Source: Escherichia phage 1-6af. Taken from it: a DNA stretch of 64,000 bases. Shown here piece by piece: positions 2,571 to 41,567 of this stretch. Position 1 is the first letter of the stretch, and each line of letters begins with the position of its first letter. Position numbers and translations under genes: made by a program. The notes under the pieces are model-generated. The model was not told the origin of the DNA. It saw only the letters and a program-made list of their open reading frames with translations, and ran no database searches. The DNA lies in sequence record OR983333.1. One strand, given 5' to 3'.

Positions 2571-3605
2571 ATGGCATATGGAATATGGACAACGCCAGTT
2601 GGACCGGGACCAGCTTCTCCGGCTGAGATTTTTATTGATAGTAATTCCACTTTCCCTCAATTCAAGAATAGGGTCAGTGGTAATTACAACTTTAATGGAG
2701 GTAGTAGAGATTTCCCTATTTCTGGATGGGATGGCTCAGGCCAAATTGTTGTAGTCCCAACCGGCTCTTTGTGTTGGCAATGGGAAGTCCCTCCTAACCT
2801 TGTCCCTGATGTGTATGTTGTAAATAACATAAGTATTGTGAATAACTCAACTTTTAGGGTTAGCATAAATATGAATCCCGGAAGTAACCCATTGTTTGAC
2901 GTGGCTTTCAATGTATATCAAATATGGCCTAGAGCTAATAGAAACTACGGGATAACCTTTTCAAACACAGCTGATTACTTCTCTATATCAGATGCTGGGG
3001 TTGTTGGTCAATGTATTTGGGCTTGGGAAGGAAACATTAATGGTTCTATGCAAATACCAGCCATCAGTGGTTTTGATATGTCAAGAGCTTCTGTGTTTGC
3101 TAACTGGTCTGGAGGGCAAGGTTTACTGTACGATGCAGGGAGTCGTAATATCAGAGTTTATCAAAACAGAACATACGACAATGGAAACAACAACCAAACA
3201 GGTACAATCAACAATGTGAGAGTTGCAGTGTTCTGTGATGGGGCTGGTGTTCCTACTCACAATGGTGGATTGAACATCTACTCACCTAATGGTTCTCAAT
3301 GTGTATTCTCTACTTACAGAACACCTTTTATGGTTGATCGCTTTATGGCTATGAGTGGAGGAGACACTGGACTATCCTATCCTATGATTCCTCTGACGAA
3401 TGGGGCTGGTTCAATTAGAGGCCAAGCTGGTAGTTGGTATTTCCAACACGCAAGATCTCATATAATGAACGGGTCTTCTTTTGGCACAGGGTATGGTCGA
3501 TATATGTTCCAGTGGAGTAGAAACTACGATATGGGTGGTGGTGGGGCTATCTCCCTTCAGGTTCCAGTACTAGATGCTAGGAAGATTTTTAGAAGCATAC
3601 AATAA
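2571..3605 (+). CDS. virion structural protein (putative fibre/adhesin component)
   Basis: Operon position among tail genes; Gly/Asn/Ser-rich beta-type composition. Confidence 0.35.
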   Translation: MAYGIWTTPVGPGPASPAEIFIDSNSTFPQFKNRVSGNYNFNGGSRDFPISGWDGSGQIVVVPTGSLCWQWEVPPNLVPDVYVVNNISIVNNSTFRVSINMNPGSNPLFDVAFNVYQIWPRANRNYGITFSNTADYFSISDAGVVGQCIWAWEGNINGSMQIPAISGFDMSRASVFANWSGGQGLLYDAGSRNIRVYQNRTYDNGNNNQTGTINNVRVAVFCDGAGVPTHNGGLNIYSPNGSQCVFSTYRTPFMVDRFMAMSGGDTGLSYPMIPLTNGAGSIRGQAGSWYFQHARSHIMNGSSFGTGYGRYMFQWSRNYDMGGGGAISLQVPVLDARKIFRSIQ

Positions 3606-38353: not shown

Positions 38354-40384
38354 TTAACCTCTATTCAATGAACATTTAGGAGAATTACAATAAACTTGAT
38401 TCATAGAACCAAGCGTACAACTTTCAGCATCGCGCCACGGAATCTGCTTAAAACACTCTGAGCAGTATCCAAGGGTTGACCACATGGCTTTGGTGAAGTC
38501 AGTGCTTCGGTTTCCGTCGAAGCTGACAACAGTTTTGCGGAGAGTTGTTCGTGATTCAGGAAACACACCTGCTTTCTCAGCAGGTTCCTCCTTTTTTGGC
38601 TTAGTTGAGATTGCAAAAATACTGTTGCTACGTTTCTCAACATAAGCATCAACAACATCCTCCAGAGTGATGCCTGTCTGTTTCGCTGAGGAAGGTAATA
38701 CAGTCATACGACCAATCATATCTTCAGTTACACGTAAAGCAAACTCAGGACGACGGGCGTTTGTTGTATCTGTTGCTTTAATCCATACATAACCATCTTT
38801 GATCGTAGCATTAGATACTTTCTTCTTTACCTCTACAGCGCAGGCTTTACAGATATCTTCACCGCGAAGACGACTAAGTTCATCATCGAACTCATTCTCT
38901 GTTTTAACTTCACCACAGATTTCACAAACACCAATAGGAGTCTCCTCCTCTTCTTCCTCTTTAGGTTTAGTCAAACCTTCCAGACATTCAGGATGCCAGT
39001 AGCACTGATATGCGAAGACTGCTTTAGGTGCATCCTTCCAATCAATGTGTTTGTCACAACCACCACAATCACCATGAGAATGTGCTTCCCAGAATTTACG
39101 AGTGATAGTAACGCCATTCTTGTTGACGAAACTATCATTCATGTCAAAAGGGATATCATCATCAAAGTCAGCAGTAGTAGACTCAGGCTCCTTTTTCTCC
39201 AGAGATGGGTCAACAAAACGACCTGCTGTGATCACTAAGCGAACCATAGCATTAACTTCGGAGATACAGGATACTGTCCCACGGTAAACAATTTTAGGGT
39301 CTTTCAGGGCATCCTGATAAGCCTTAATATCTACGTTATGGACATCACCTTCGATATACTCTTGAGATTTCTCATCGTAGATATAACCAATCATCTTACC
39401 ACGAGAAGGAACAGCACCAGCAGTTGCATAAGGAACAAACTCATGCGGAGTGATTTCCACAGTCATATCGCGGCGAATATCAATGTTTCGATCACTTGCG
39501 ATTTTGTTTTGACTTACCACTGCGTTTCTTCGACGAACATCTGCCGCTGTCACTCCCGGCTTCGTGTCGTAGGGATTGCTTGTACTGCTTTTTGAGGAAC
39601 TTTGATAGTTGCTTTGGCTGTAGTTGTTCGAGTAATAACTGCCCCAACGATTGGCTACCGTAAAAACCGGAAGCTCGTGGGCGACCTCTTCAACCAGAGT
39701 CATGCCGTTGTTTGACATATCAAAGATATACTCTGTACCAACTTTACATTCAAAATGCTCGTCAATACGGTTCTTATGAGACTTAGAACGCTTCAGAATC
39801 CACATCAACATATCTTCTTCAGAAGCACCAAACCAATCTCTGTTACAACGTGCGAGGTGGAAAGGACGCTCTTCGTTACGAATGATATGAAGGCGGTTAT
39901 CAGAAGCATCATGCCAGATTAAGGTGAAAGCACCATCCAGCTTTTGAATAGTCTCTGCTGCACCGATAGTGTTAATAGAGTGGCAGATGTTCTCGCTGTC
40001 TACCTCGAAGCTTTTGCTGTCAGGTAACAGATCTTGGTCCATCAAGGTTCCATTATGAACCAGAGTGATGTTACCATGTTGGAAAGGATGGGCGTTCTTG
40101 GCGTTAACTGCACCTTTCGTTGCATGACGACTGTGACCAACAATCCATGAAGGTGCTACAGTGTAAGCTGTTTCACCAGTGGTGTGCTTCTTGTACTCAT
40201 CTTGTAGGATGAATGCGAAAGAAGGAAGAGCTTCTTTATAAGTGAAGACTTCCTTAGTGCTTTTACGCTGACCAAAGATACCGGAGGAATGTTGTCCTCG
40301 GAATACTCCAGCATAAAAGAGTTGGTTGAATACGTCTAAATCAGTGCTTGACAGATTACCGCCAGCTAATACGATGCCACAAAT
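38354..40384 (-). CDS. class-II (Ntn) glutamine amidotransferase-domain protein with non-canonical start
   Basis: Upstream of the ORF-track start the same frame encodes (I)CGIVLAGG...FRGQHSSGIFG...GHSRHATKG...HNGTL; the catalytic Cys codon follows ATT; no ATG/GTG/TTG between an in-frame TAG (40388-40390) and 40045. Confidence 0.65.
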   Translation of the reverse strand: MCGIVLAGGNLSSTDLDVFNQLFYAGVFRGQHSSGIFGQRKSTKEVFTYKEALPSFAFILQDEYKKHTTGETAYTVAPSWIVGHSRHATKGAVNAKNAHPFQHGNITLVHNGTLMDQDLLPDSKSFEVDSENICHSINTIGAAETIQKLDGAFTLIWHDASDNRLHIIRNEERPFHLARCNRDWFGASEEDMLMWILKRSKSHKNRIDEHFECKVGTEYIFDMSNNGMTLVEEVAHELPVFTVANRWGSYYSNNYSQSNYQSSSKSSTSNPYDTKPGVTAADVRRRNAVVSQNKIASDRNIDIRRDMTVEITPHEFVPYATAGAVPSRGKMIGYIYDEKSQEYIEGDVHNVDIKAYQDALKDPKIVYRGTVSCISEVNAMVRLVITAGRFVDPSLEKKEPESTTADFDDDIPFDMNDSFVNKNGVTITRKFWEAHSHGDCGGCDKHIDWKDAPKAVFAYQCYWHPECLEGLTKPKEEEEEETPIGVCEICGEVKTENEFDDELSRLRGEDICKACAVEVKKKVSNATIKDGYVWIKATDTTNARRPEFALRVTEDMIGRMTVLPSSAKQTGITLEDVVDAYVEKRSNSIFAISTKPKKEEPAEKAGVFPESRTTLRKTVVSFDGNRSTDFTKAMWSTLGYCSECFKQIPWRDAESCTLGSMNQVYCNSPKCSLNRG

Positions 40385-40463
40385 TTTCTAATCCACCTGA
40401 AGGGTAAACCCTTTCATCTAATTAACCTTTAAATTGTGCCCCTTTGTCAGAGGCACCCATTGA

Positions 40464-41567
40464 TTACAGCGCTTGTTCTAACTGATTTTCCAGATGGTCT
40501 GGAATGTACCCTGTGATATTGCTATCACTGTGACCTGACTCACGTAGTAAGTCAAAAATAGCACGGATACGTTGTTCTGGAGCGTGTCTTACTTGAGATA
40601 GGTCTGCTGTACGAAGCATAACCAAAATCTCTTGATACAAGTTGTTAGCGTTCCCTCGGACATAACCAAGGAATCCATAGAAGTCTGACATAAGACGCAA
40701 GTCAACAAGAACATCTCCGTTGGAGTTGGTTCGACGTAAACGAATACGACCAGACTGTTCTACTTCATGAGAACGACAATACAAAACATCACGGGCCATA
40801 CAATAACCTGAATGCAAATCCGATTCATCCAGATTGTAATCCAGAGGAAGGTAAGGAAGCATTGGGGCAAATCGTACAGTATTTAAATGCTCAACAAACT
40901 GATCGTTGCTCATATCTGCGTTATCTAAAGCCAGCTTCTTCAGCATCAAGAAGCGGTTAACCAGATTGAGAAGTTGACCACGTTTCCACTTAGGCTCGCT
41001 GATACGGAACTCAATCGAACCGTATTGGGCAAGTGGCAGAAGGTTCAGGGATGTATACTTATCCCATGAACGAACCAGACGGTTGAAGAACTCTTCACCA
41101 TCGTAGTTAAATGCGTCAGAGGCATTCATTACCTGTGCTTGTACCACTGCAAACGCAGGGCAGAAATTGCTACGGTAACGATGGTAGCCTGAGCACTTGA
41201 ACAACATCTTTTCGTAGAAGGTCCAAGCGAGAATGGTTTTCTTGAGGATATTACTATCAGCATCCCTCATATCCATATGAACGTGAGTAGAGCAACGCCA
41301 AGTCCCCTCGGCGTGCGATTCAGCTACTGCTTCACTCAGGTTGTTGATAGCGTCTAACAACTCCTGTCCGTTGTAAGGTCGTGAACATACCATTTCACAA
41401 CCATTACGCAGGGAACCATCCTCTGTACAATCCCACATATCTGCTTCGATATGATCGGAACCTTCGAGTTCAAGTTCAATACCGACACCGCACTGAAGTG
41501 CAATTGAACTATGCGCCTCAGTTAAACGTCCTTCTCGATATCCAAAAGTTTGCGCTACAGTTGTCAT
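40464..41567 (-). CDS. GS/GCS2-like carboxylate-amine ligase (amidoligase)
   Basis: GIELELEG and STHVHMD motifs resembling the YbdK/GCS2 family. Confidence 0.6.
   Translation of the reverse strand: MTTVAQTFGYREGRLTEAHSSIALQCGVGIELELEGSDHIEADMWDCTEDGSLRNGCEMVCSRPYNGQELLDAINNLSEAVAESHAEGTWRCSTHVHMDMRDADSNILKKTILAWTFYEKMLFKCSGYHRYRSNFCPAFAVVQAQVMNASDAFNYDGEEFFNRLVRSWDKYTSLNLLPLAQYGSIEFRISEPKWKRGQLLNLVNRFLMLKKLALDNADMSNDQFVEHLNTVRFAPMLPYLPLDYNLDESDLHSGYCMARDVLYCRSHEVEQSGRIRLRRTNSNGDVLVDLRLMSDFYGFLGYVRGNANNLYQEILVMLRTADLSQVRHAPEQRIRAIFDLLRESGHSDSNITGYIPDHLENQLEQAL

What the first reader, a model, noticed from the sequence alone, without database searches (positions are those of the whole stretch)
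40040..40417. Amidotransferase catalytic Cys is preceded by AUU and an in-frame UAG: non-AUG initiation or coupled re-initiation
The conserved N-terminal domain (CGIVLAGG...RGQHSSGIFG...GHSRHATKG) lies upstream of the first ATG/GTG/TTG of the ORF, in frame. Class-II amidotransferases need Cys as residue 1 of the mature protein. The Cys codon (40381-40379) directly follows ATT, which follows AAA and an in-frame TAG. A 9-codon mini-ORF (ATG 40417 ... TAG 40388) ends 3 nt before that ATT and contains a strong SD-like AGGTGGA 8 nt upstream of it. This suggests initiation at AUU, termination-reinitiation coupling, or a cleaved propeptide made by UAG read-through.
Basis: seen in the sequence. Interest (0 to 1): 0.75.

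Follow-up and report, generated by a model that had tools for sequence, protein, structure and literature searches.

The report
AUU start codon of phage amidotransferase
A phiEco32-like coliphage starts its glutamine amidotransferase gene at the rare codon AUU so that the catalytic cysteine ends up first in the protein; this start is already in the phiEco32 GenBank annotation, but the 56-base leader in front of it is unusually conserved and unexplained.

Summary
On the minus strand the sequence reads ATG(40417) AAA GGG TTT ACC CTT CAG GTG GAT TAG AAA ATT(40384-40382) TGT(40381-40379). The TGT is the Cys1 nucleophile of a class-II (Ntn) glutamine amidotransferase. No ATG, GTG or TTG lies between the in-frame TAG and the Cys.

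The window is a Kuravirus, 100% identical over this locus to Escherichia phage 1-6bf. phiEco32 gp83, SU10 gp85 and Bas86_0076 are already annotated from this ATT. Other records (ECBP2, SU7, EK010, KBNP1711, EP335, BUCT695) call truncated genes that lack the Cys.

AUU initiation is the best explanation. ATT is invariant in every relative examined, and close homologues have ATG at exactly that codon. About ten other metagenomic phage lineages of the family have ATT or ATC before the Cys with no alternative start and stronger Shine-Dalgarno sequences.

UAG read-through is not supported: there is no tRNA gene and the genetic code is standard. Coupling to the 9-codon mini-ORF is plausible but untested. 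Its stop, 3-nt gap and AUU match the E. coli thrS-infC junction.

New here: a 56-nt leader (40432-40377) is the longest invariant run in 3.7 kb across three phage genera. It also persists in Aeromonas phage BUCT695. Its function is unknown.

The parts
38354..40384 (-). Glutamine amidotransferase CDS read from the ATT start: 676 codons plus stop. It has an N-terminal class-II/Ntn glutaminase domain and a C-terminal half with CxxC motifs. Equivalent to phiEco32 gp83 and SU10 gp85.
   Evidence: Translation; Pfam GATase_6/7/4; PDB profile alignment to GlmS/PurF; model and fold search; same 2031-nt CDS annotated in phiEco32 and SU10.
40382..40384 (-). ATT, the inferred AUU initiation codon.
   Evidence: It is the only near-cognate start codon between the in-frame TAG and the Cys codon. 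It is invariant in all relatives that carry this leader. Close homologues have ATG at the identical position. It is the annotated start in phiEco32, SU10 and Bas86.
40379..40381 (-). TGT, the Cys1 nucleophile codon.
   Evidence: It aligns with Cys1 of E. coli GlmS (1xff) and PurF. It is invariant in the family alignments. One metagenomic relative has the synonymous TGC (L119).
40388..40390 (-). In-frame TAG. It is the stop of the mini-ORF and excludes any upstream canonical start for the amidotransferase.
40392..40398 (-). Shine-Dalgarno-like AGGTGGA, 7 nt upstream of the ATT and inside the mini-ORF.
   Evidence: Duplex with the 16S 3' end is -7.0 kcal/mol. BUCT695 has AGGCGGA here.
40388..40417 (-). 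Mini-ORF ATG AAA GGG TTT ACC CTT CAG GTG GAT TAG (MKGFTLQVD*), in frame with the amidotransferase and ending 3 nt before the ATT.
   Evidence: The same 9-codon ORF occurs in BUCT695 as MKGLTLQAD*. It has zero nucleotide variation across three Gordonclarkvirinae genera.
40400..40413 (-). Palindrome or hairpin AAGGG-TTTA-CCCTT within the mini-ORF. It occurs once in the window.
   Evidence: The only difference in BUCT695 falls in the loop (TTAA). The fold is not more stable than shuffled sequences.
40426..40429 (-). AAGG, a possible SD for the mini-ORF, 8 nt before its ATG.
   Evidence: Read from the sequence. It is absent in BUCT695, which has AAATGTAATATTAG before the ATG, so its status is uncertain.
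40377..40432 (-). 56-nt invariant leader: TTAAAGGTTAATTAGATGAAAGGGTTTACCCTTCAGGTGGATTAGAAAATTTGTGG.
   Evidence: It is the longest invariant run in a 3.7-kb alignment of Kuravirus, Suseptimavirus and Nieuwekanaalvirus; the next longest is 23 nt and only 59% of columns are invariant overall. Identity to BUCT695 is 88.6% over 79 nt, against 65-68% in the best-conserved coding parts.
40436..40456 (-). Stem-loop GUGCCUCU-GACAA-AGGGGCAC directly after the amidoligase stop codon. It is terminator-like but lacks a proper U-tract.
   Evidence: Fold. Compensatory changes among genera: GCGCUCU/AGGGCGC in Suseptimavirus and GUGCCUC-GAAA-GGGGCAC in Nieuwekanaalvirus. It is annotated as 'terminator' in phage WFI101126.
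40043..40045 (-). TTG, the first canonical in-frame start. An ORF finder calls the resulting 563-aa truncated ORF, which lacks the glutaminase active site.
   Evidence: SU10 proteomics listed 63.8 kDa, which matches this truncated form.
40464..41567 (-). Upstream amidoligase gene (PF12224). Its stop codon lies 79 nt before the ATT.

Best explanation
The amidotransferase is translated from the AUU codon at 40384-40382. A 30S subunit is positioned by the AGGUGG Shine-Dalgarno sequence 7 nt upstream, and fMet-tRNA reads AUU as a near-cognate start. Deformylase and methionine aminopeptidase then remove fMet, since Cys is a permitted second residue, exactly as in E. coli GlmS, PurF and AsnB. This exposes Cys1 as the N-terminal nucleophile. 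The weak start codon probably keeps expression low and makes it sensitive to IF3 and to the state of the host translation apparatus. The 9-codon mini-ORF that stops 3 nt upstream probably adds ribosomes by termination-reinitiation, as at the thrS-infC junction. What is shown: the anatomy, the conservation, the fold, and the position-equivalent ATG in homologues. What is inferred: initiation at AUU, Met removal, the contribution of the mini-ORF, and the regulatory purpose.
For: (a) Between the in-frame TAG and the Cys there are only AAA and ATT.
(b) The Cys aligns with Cys1 of GlmS and PurF. The catalytic motifs (R28-G29, H83-x-R85-x-x-T88-x-G90, H109-N110-G111, D128-S129) are invariant. The domain models as an Ntn fold.
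(c) Homologues at 71%, 63-64% and 51% identity have ATG at exactly the ATT position. So do 70 of 87 surveyed viral loci and 7 of 8 cultured phages sampled, with TTG in the eighth.
(d) ATT is invariant across three genera plus BUCT695 and contig L011.
(e) ATT or ATC immediately before the Cys recurs in L047, L051, L063, L065, L067, L069, L070, L074 and L104. None has an in-frame canonical start after the upstream stop, and each has GGAGG, AGGAG or AAGGA 5-9 nt upstream. Every non-canonical case is ATT (12) or ATC (2), never another codon.
(f) SD duplexes are stronger in the ATT/ATC class: median -7.8 versus -6.2 kcal/mol, one-sided Mann-Whitney p=0.0024.
(g) The protein is expressed: SU10 gp85 was detected with 9 peptides.
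(h) Curators of phiEco32, SU10 and Bas86 chose this ATT.
(i) The stop, 3-nt gap and AUU match the infC junction, where reporter data attribute about half of translation to reinitiation (PMC3592434).
Against: There is no direct evidence for the N-terminus. The SU10 mass-spectrometry table lists 63.8 kDa, which corresponds to the truncated 562/563-aa ORF rather than the 76.2-kDa full-length protein. N-terminal-domain peptides were therefore probably not searchable. AUU is a poor initiator, six to eight times below AUG in one reporter. The SD here (-7.0 kcal/mol) is among the weakest of the ATT class. The extreme nucleotide conservation of the leader is not explained by a plain SD-plus-AUU site. 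The SD comparison is not corrected for phylogenetic relatedness.
Confidence: 0.85

Rival explanations
1. Obligatory termination-reinitiation. Ribosomes reach the AUU essentially only after translating the mini-ORF MKGFTLQVD and terminating at UAG 3 nt upstream. The post-termination ribosome is held by the internal SD and restarts at AUU, and de novo 30S binding contributes little. The start codon is the same as in the best explanation; only the route of ribosome delivery differs.
For: The mini-ORF, its frame, its 9-codon length and the UAG-AAA-AUU junction are conserved from phiEco32-like phages to Aeromonas phage BUCT695. The two lineages that carry the mini-ORF have the weakest SDs of the ATT class, -7.0 and -5.8 kcal/mol. 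Their genes lie 45-79 nt from the upstream gene's stop (74-79 nt in the phiEco32-like phages), behind a hairpin in the coliphages. By contrast, ATG-type homologues mostly overlap or abut the upstream gene, with a gap of -1 to +2 nt. The geometry equals the thrS-infC junction.
Against: About ten other ATT/ATC lineages have no such mini-ORF. BUCT695 has no recognisable SD for the mini-ORF ATG. In the infC-type reporter, reinitiation and de novo initiation contributed about equally, so reinitiation was not exclusive. Zero synonymous change in 9 codons points to a nucleotide-level constraint, not merely 'an ORF must be here'.
Confidence: 0.35
2. UAG read-through propeptide. Translation starts at the mini-ORF ATG and reads through UAG, and a 12-residue propeptide is removed autocatalytically to expose Cys1, as with the 11-residue propeptide of B. 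subtilis PurF.
For: The mini-ORF is in frame with the amidotransferase in both phiEco32-like phages and BUCT695. Ntn amidotransferases with cleaved propeptides exist (established knowledge: B. subtilis PurF).
Against: ARAGORN finds no tRNA gene in the window or in the remaining 13 kb of the genome. Stop-codon usage is ordinary and coding density is normal under the standard code. No Rfam recoding element is found. Other ATT lineages have unrelated upstream sequence with no in-frame start. L104 shares the same GGATTAGAAAATTTGTGG string without the ATG mini-ORF; only a 4-codon TTG-initiated frame with no SD of its own lies upstream. Basal read-through in E. coli is far lower than AUU initiation (established knowledge).
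Confidence: 0.03
3. The N-terminal domain is not made. The real product starts at an internal canonical codon such as TTG 40045, as several GenBank records annotate, and the upstream part is a decaying remnant.
For: ORF finders and several records (ECBP2, SU7, EK010, KBNP1711, EP335, BUCT695) call truncated genes. The SU10 proteomics table lists 63.8 kDa.
Against: The 113 upstream codons are free of stops and carry all the invariant catalytic residues. They vary mainly at wobble positions among genera that are only 59% invariant overall. They fold confidently as the first half of the Ntn domain. The truncated form would begin in the middle of that domain. The 63.8-kDa figure is a database value, not a measured size.
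Confidence: 0.02
4. The 56-nt invariant block is conserved mainly for a reason other than AUU initiation. Candidates are an operator for an RNA- or DNA-binding regulator (the AAGGGTnnACCCTT palindrome), an RNA processing or stability site, or a promoter. The AUU start merely sits inside it.
For: Nucleotide-level invariance exceeds that of any nearby coding sequence. The palindrome is perfect in BUCT695 (AAGGGTTAACCCTT). Predicted RNA structures are no more stable than shuffles, which suggests sequence-specific recognition. An upstream motif, TTTAAAtGTaaAtTAGA, is shared with ATG-type relatives and resembles the phiEco32 gp36 promoter consensus tAATGTAtA (PMC8948821).
Against: The palindrome occurs once in the window. 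No TAATGTATA-type element lies within the leader. Published gp36 promoters are upstream of genes 6, 13, 26, 40, 58 and 68 only (PMC4331800). No Rfam family matches, and there is no similar sequence in E. coli genomes. No covariation data are available because nothing varies.
Confidence: 0.2

Closest known systems
E. coli infC (IF3) AUU start and the thrS-infC junction
   Same: Both use AUU as the initiation codon, preceded by an SD that lies inside the upstream reading frame. In both, the upstream ORF's stop is separated from the AUU by exactly 3 nt: UAA GGU AUU in infC and UAG AAA AUU here (PMC3592434).
   Different: The upstream ORF here is a dedicated 9-codon mini-ORF rather than a full gene. 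The downstream product is an amidotransferase, not IF3, so no autoregulatory loop is evident. IF3 dependence is untested.
phiEco32 gp83 (ABY52884.1 / YP_001671828.1) and SU10 gp85 (AIF71837.1)
   Same: This is the same gene, with 97.7-98.7% nucleotide identity around the start. Both CDSs are annotated from this very ATT and are 2031 nt long.
   Different: Nothing substantive differs. The papers that could be read (the SU10 and SU7 genome papers) do not mention the start codon. The phiEco32 papers of Savalia 2008 and Pavlova 2012 were not available.
Class-II (Ntn) glutamine amidotransferases GlmS, PurF and AsnB
   Same: They share the N-terminal Cys nucleophile, the catalytic motifs and the fold. 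The mature N-terminus must be Cys, produced by Met removal in E. coli GlmS and PurF or by propeptide cleavage in B. subtilis PurF (established knowledge).
   Different: The acceptor domain is unrelated: a C-terminal half with CxxC motifs and no Pfam match. The gene sits in a phage cluster with amidoligase, COOH-NH2 ligase and ATP-grasp genes. The start codon is non-canonical.
Short upstream ORFs that couple or gate translation of a downstream cistron in bacteria and phages
   Same: A short ORF with its own ATG ends next to the downstream start and contains that start's SD.
   Different: No regulatory signal, stalling motif or alternative structure could be demonstrated here, and the fold energies are unremarkable.

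Membership tests
Class-II (Ntn) glutamine amidotransferase | Cysteine nucleophile at the position of Cys1 of GlmS/PurF | tested here: met
   The profile of 30 family members aligns its M-C start with residue 1 of 1xff (CGIVG...) and with PurF, E=2.7e-21 to 4.5e-15.
Class-II (Ntn) glutamine amidotransferase | Conserved catalytic and oxyanion motifs (R-G, H-x-R-x-x-T-x-G, H-N-G, D-S) | tested here: met
   Invariant columns are C1, G2, R28, G29, H83, R85, T88, G90, H109, N110, G111, D128 and S129. They align with the GlmS motifs.
Class-II (Ntn) glutamine amidotransferase | Ntn alpha-beta-beta-alpha fold with the first strand starting at the nucleophile | tested here: met
   AlphaFold2 model with pLDDT 93.8 and pTM 0.92, with strand E2-7 directly after Cys1. 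Top Foldseek hits are GlmS, PurF, GFAT, ASNS and EgtC, E down to 1e-14.
Class-II (Ntn) glutamine amidotransferase | Cys is residue 1 of the mature polypeptide; glutaminase activity | not testable with these tools
   This needs N-terminal sequencing and an enzyme assay.
Genes initiated at AUU (infC/pcnB type) | No canonical start codon available in frame upstream of conserved, essential N-terminal residues | tested here: met
   TAG AAA ATT TGT.
Genes initiated at AUU (infC/pcnB type) | Shine-Dalgarno sequence at functional spacing | tested here: met
   AGGTGGA ends 7 nt upstream; duplex energy -7.0 kcal/mol.
Genes initiated at AUU (infC/pcnB type) | AUU conserved in orthologues, with AUG at the same position in others | tested here: met
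   ATT is invariant in all leader-bearing relatives. ATG occupies the same codon in L010, L018-L022 and most of the family.
Genes initiated at AUU (infC/pcnB type) | Direct demonstration of initiation (N-terminal peptide, toeprint, or TIS profiling) and IF3 sensitivity | not testable with these tools
   Published SU10 proteomics used the truncated 63.8-kDa sequence.
Termination-reinitiation coupling (thrS-infC-like) | Upstream ORF stop within a few nt of the downstream start, with the SD inside the upstream ORF | tested here: met
   UAG, a 3-nt gap, then AUU; the SD lies in codons 7-9 of the mini-ORF. Compare UAA GGU AUU.
Termination-reinitiation coupling (thrS-infC-like) | The upstream ORF is itself translated (own SD and start) | tested here: inconclusive
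   The ATG is conserved. AAGG lies 8 nt upstream in the coliphages, but BUCT695 has no SD there.
Termination-reinitiation coupling (thrS-infC-like) | Downstream translation depends on upstream translation | not testable with these tools
   This needs reporter mutagenesis.
Programmed stop-codon read-through or recoding | Suppressor tRNA, reassigned code, or a known read-through signal | tested here: not met
   No tRNA gene in the whole genome. Stops of long ORFs are TAA 30, TGA 11, TAG 1. No Rfam hit above noise.
Known cis-regulatory RNA families (Rfam 15) | Match to a covariance model at or near the gathering score | tested here: not met
   The best hits score 13-17 bits against gathering scores of 44-70.

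The most novel reading that the evidence does not exclude
The invariant 56-nt leader (mini-ORF, palindrome, SD and AUU) may be a dedicated translational control module that gates a deliberately weak AUU start. It could do so in response to IF3 availability, ppGpp or nutrient state, or a bound regulator. It has been maintained from E. coli Gordonclarkvirinae to an Aeromonas Grimontviridae phage. More broadly, AUU/AUC starts may be positively maintained in phage Ntn amidotransferases: about 13% of surveyed lineages use them, against well under 1% of E. coli genes. The purpose would be to throttle or condition a glutamine-consuming enzyme.
Probability: 0.25. Interest if true: 0.6.

Novelty: new member of a known kind. 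Interest (0 to 1): 0.35.

Why it matters
There is a practical consequence. Many GenBank records of phiEco32-like phages and BUCT695 annotate an amidotransferase that lacks its catalytic cysteine, because gene callers ignore ATT. Proteomics searched against those models cannot see the active-site domain.

There is also a biological lead. AUU starts are very rare in E. coli, with infC and pcnB as the classic cases. Here an AUU start is fixed in a whole phage subfamily and sits inside the most conserved non-coding block of the region. ATT and ATC starts also recur in unrelated lineages of the same enzyme family. That makes this gene a convenient natural system for asking why a weak start codon is selected and whether a short upstream ORF assists it. 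It does not overturn anything known about initiation.

Tried and rejected
- Rfam scan of the leader at a permissive E-value: only noise.
- RNA folding of the leader and flanks: z-scores from -1.85 to +0.59, no better than shuffles. RNAalifold gave two small hairpins, an outer stem and no covariation. The outer stem pairs with ATCGTATTAGC, which is also conserved in ATG-type homologues that lack the leader, so it was not pursued.
- Search for further copies of the leader, its palindrome or the upstream motif in the window: none beyond chance.
- gp36 promoter consensus TAATGTATA near the leader: absent.
- Sigma-70 and terminator scan: it found only an antisense TTGACA-16-TACGAT at 40348-40375 on the + strand. 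Its -35 element is not conserved in Suseptimavirus, so it was treated as chance.
- Suppressor tRNA or code reassignment: none.
- T4 gene 60-type bypass and frameshifting: considered and rejected from the sequence. There is no matching landing codon before the Cys, and the mini-ORF is already in frame.
- Metagenome scan for the hairpin pattern: it returned only phiEco32-like phages plus unrelated elements, with no new leader variants.
- Host origin of the leader: no match in 5,426 E. coli genomes.
- Literature: the SU10 and SU7 papers do not mention the start codon. The phiEco32 papers PMC2587145 and PMC3275717 are not held.
- A single-sequence PDB search found nothing; the profile search was needed.
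Full report
**Identity of the window.** The region is 100% identical to Escherichia phage 1-6bf. It is 97.7-98.7% identical to phiEco32 and SU10 (Kuravirus, Gordonclarkvirinae). The genes on the minus strand form the known phage cluster:
- COOH-NH2 ligase (PF14395)
- a hypothetical protein
- amidoligase (PF12224)
- glutamine amidotransferase
- DUF7195
- a small ORF
- an ATP-grasp enzyme

**Check of the observation.**
- ATG at 40417-40415
- eight further sense codons
- TAG at 40390-40388
- AAA
- ATT at 40384-40382
- TGT at 40381-40379, followed by CGIVLAGG

The SD-like AGGTGGA at 40398-40392 ends 7 nt before the ATT, not 8. The first canonical in-frame start is TTG at 40045, which gives a 563-aa ORF.

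**The Cys is the catalytic nucleophile.**
- A profile of 30 family members aligns its Met-Cys start with residue 1 of the E. coli GlmS glutaminase domain and with PurF, with E down to 2.7e-21.
- The catalytic motifs are invariant.
- The 240 residues from the Cys give a confident Ntn-fold model: pLDDT 93.8, with the first strand starting directly after Cys1.
- The best PDB matches of that model are GlmS, PurF, GFAT, ASNS and EgtC.

**Is it real and translated?**
- The same ATT-TGT occurs in every relative inspected. These comprise GenBank phages of three genera, IMG/VR contigs and metagenome contigs, so a sequencing error is excluded.
- From the Cys codon onward, substitutions among genera fall mainly at wobble positions: GGC/GGT, GCT/GCA, GGC/GGT/GGG, and once TGT/TGC.
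- The SU10 orthologue was detected by mass spectrometry with 9 peptides. However, the tabulated 63.8 kDa equals the truncated 562/563-aa form, not the 76.2-kDa full-length protein. That experiment therefore says nothing about the N-terminus.

**Which codon starts the protein?** After the in-frame TAG only AAA and ATT precede the Cys, so ATT is the only candidate that leaves Cys at position 2.
- Homologues settle the position. A 71%-identical protein (L010) has AAAGGAAAAGATA-ATG-TGT.
- Relatives at 63-64% and 51% identity, including Salmonella phage 7-11, have ATG-TGT.
- Seven of eight cultured phages sampled from other hosts have ATG-TGT; the eighth has TTG.
- phiEco32 gp83, SU10 gp85 and Bas86_0076 are annotated from this ATT. 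ECBP2, EK010, SU7 and BUCT695 start 30-33 nt too late, and KBNP1711 and EP335 start 135-174 nt too late.

**ATT and ATC starts recur in the family.** I surveyed 87 viral loci encoding this domain. The codon before the Cys is ATG in 70, TTG in 2, ATT in 12 and ATC in 2. One further locus reads ATG-TGC-TGT.
- In L047, L051, L063, L065, L067, L069, L070 and L074 there is no in-frame ATG, GTG or TTG between the upstream stop and the Cys. Each has GGAGG, AGGAG or AAGGA 5-9 nt upstream.
- L104 reads TAAGCTTGAAGGAGGATTAGAAA-ATT-TGT-GGC. It shares the 18-mer GGATTAGAAAATTTGTGG with the coliphages but lacks the ATG mini-ORF and the hairpin.
- L011 has AGGTGA-CTAAA-ATT-TGT.
- These lineages are scattered over a neighbour-joining tree and interleaved with ATG lineages.
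- All non-canonical cases are third-position variants of ATG that are known near-cognate initiators.
- SD duplex energies are stronger in the ATT/ATC class: median -7.8 versus -6.2 kcal/mol, one-sided Mann-Whitney p=0.0024, not corrected for phylogeny.
- ATG-type genes mostly overlap or abut the upstream gene, with a gap of -1 to +2 nt. ATT/ATC-type genes lie 13-141 nt from it in 14 of 15 cases (median gap 45 nt); L063 overlaps the upstream frame by 13 nt.

**Read-through is not supported.**
- ARAGORN finds no tRNA in the window or in the remaining 13.4 kb of the genome.
- Long ORFs end with TAA (30), TGA (11) and TAG (1).
- No recoding element is found.
- The upstream sequences of the other ATT lineages are unrelated and lack starts.

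**The mini-ORF and the leader.** In a 3.7-kb alignment of Kuravirus, Suseptimavirus and Nieuwekanaalvirus, only 59% of columns are invariant. Yet a 56-nt block from -48 to +7 relative to the ATT (window 40432-40377) has no change at all. The next longest invariant run is 23 nt.
- The block contains a possible SD (AAGG), the mini-ORF, the palindrome AAGGG-TTTA-CCCTT, the SD, TAG, AAA, ATT and TGTGG.
- Aeromonas phage BUCT695 belongs to a different family, Grimontviridae, and its GATase domain is 52% identical. It keeps the block with two changes. One is in the palindrome loop (TTTA to TTAA) and one is in the SD (GGTGG to GGCGG). Identity is 88.6% over 79 nt, against 65-68% in the best-conserved coding stretches.
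- Its mini-ORF is again 9 codons (MKGLTLQAD*), but its ATG has no SD.
- No further variants were found in IMG/VR or JGI metagenomes.
- Predicted RNA structures are not more stable than shuffled sequences and cannot be tested by covariation.
- The palindrome is unique in the window. No gp36-type promoter element lies there. E. coli genomes contain nothing similar.
- The reason for the nucleotide-level invariance therefore remains open.

The geometry of stop, 3-nt gap and AUU is that of the E. coli thrS-infC junction, UAA GGU AUU. For that junction, reporter work attributes roughly equal shares of translation to reinitiation and de novo initiation (PMC3592434). The two lineages with the mini-ORF have the weakest SDs of the ATT class. 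This fits a helper role for the mini-ORF but does not prove it.

**Upstream hairpin.** A stem-loop sits directly after the amidoligase stop, at 40456-40436. It shows compensatory changes among genera: GUGCCUCU/AGGGGCAC, GCGCUCU/AGGGCGC, and GUGCCUC-GAAA-GGGGCAC. One record annotates it as a terminator, but it lacks a U-tract. ATG-type relatives have a hairpin followed by TTTAAA at the same place.

**Mechanism proposed.** SD-directed initiation occurs at AUU with fMet-tRNA. Deformylation and Met removal then expose Cys1. The weak codon probably limits expression and makes it dependent on the state of the initiation machinery. AUU mRNAs compete poorly with AUG mRNAs and are sensitive to ppGpp and nutrient limitation (PMC5499595). 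The mini-ORF probably supplies some ribosomes by reinitiation.

I rate AUU as the start at about 0.85. I rate a substantial contribution from the mini-ORF at about 0.35-0.5, and read-through at about 0.03.

**Novelty.** The start codon is already in the public annotation, so the core of the finding is known at that level. I found no paper discussing it among those I could read. As far as I could establish, two things are not described: the recurrence of ATT/ATC starts across this phage enzyme family, and the exceptional conservation of the leader. Both are comparative observations that still need experimental support.

Noticed in passing
window 40436-40456 (minus strand): A stem-loop directly after the amidoligase stop codon shows compensatory base changes among Kuravirus, Suseptimavirus and Nieuwekanaalvirus and has variable loops, including a GAAA tetraloop. 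It is terminator-like but has no U-tract, so it could be a processing or stability element within the early operon.
   Followed up: partly
window 40417-40433 (minus); L009 about 3001-3020; L018, L019, L020 and L129 upstream of the ATG: The motif TTTAAAtGT(a/t)AAtTAGA upstream of the amidotransferase start is shared by ATT-type and ATG-type relatives. AAATGTAAA resembles the phiEco32 gp36 promoter consensus tAATGTAtA, but the coliphage version (AAAGGTTAA) is degenerate and gene 83 is not among the published gp36 promoters.
   Followed up: partly
GenBank records ECBP2, EK010, SU7, KBNP1711, EP335, BUCT695 (loci L004-L007, L009, L122): The amidotransferase is annotated 30-174 nt too short, starting at an internal ATG or GTG, so the deposited proteins lack the catalytic Cys. 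The SU10 proteomics table also used the truncated 63.8-kDa form.
   Followed up: yes
window 40348-40375 (+ strand): A sigma-70-like TTGACA-16-TACGAT lies antisense to the gene, and its transcript would begin at about the ATT/Cys codons. The TTGACA is not conserved in Suseptimavirus, so it is probably a chance match.
   Followed up: partly
L114, L118, L120, L121 (Ga0224511 metagenome contigs): Four contigs share a conserved ~90-nt element beginning AAACTGATGAAAGGGAAAGCCCTTCAGGAAGCATAGC.... It is unrelated to the phage leader and contains a hammerhead-like CUGAUGA. It was picked up only because it matches the hairpin pattern.
   Followed up: no
viral loci L023-L102: ATG-type amidotransferase genes mostly overlap or abut the upstream gene, with a gap of -1 to +2 nt. 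ATT/ATC-type genes are separated from it by 13-141 nt in 14 of 15 cases. This suggests that tight coupling and a weak start codon with a strong SD are alternative arrangements.
   Followed up: partly
window 38354-39660 (minus strand): The C-terminal ~435 residues of the amidotransferase have no Pfam match. They contain several CxxC pairs (zinc-ribbon-like) and a low-complexity Ser/Asn/Tyr and Glu-rich linker. The acceptor or synthase function of the protein is unknown.
   Followed up: no
L012 (Logan SRR24115948 contig, 64.9 kb) and L009 (BUCT695): The cluster COOH-NH2 ligase, hypothetical protein, amidoligase, amidotransferase, small ORFs including DUF7195, and an ATP-grasp enzyme (in BUCT695) is syntenic across distant phages, so it behaves as one functional module.
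   Followed up: no
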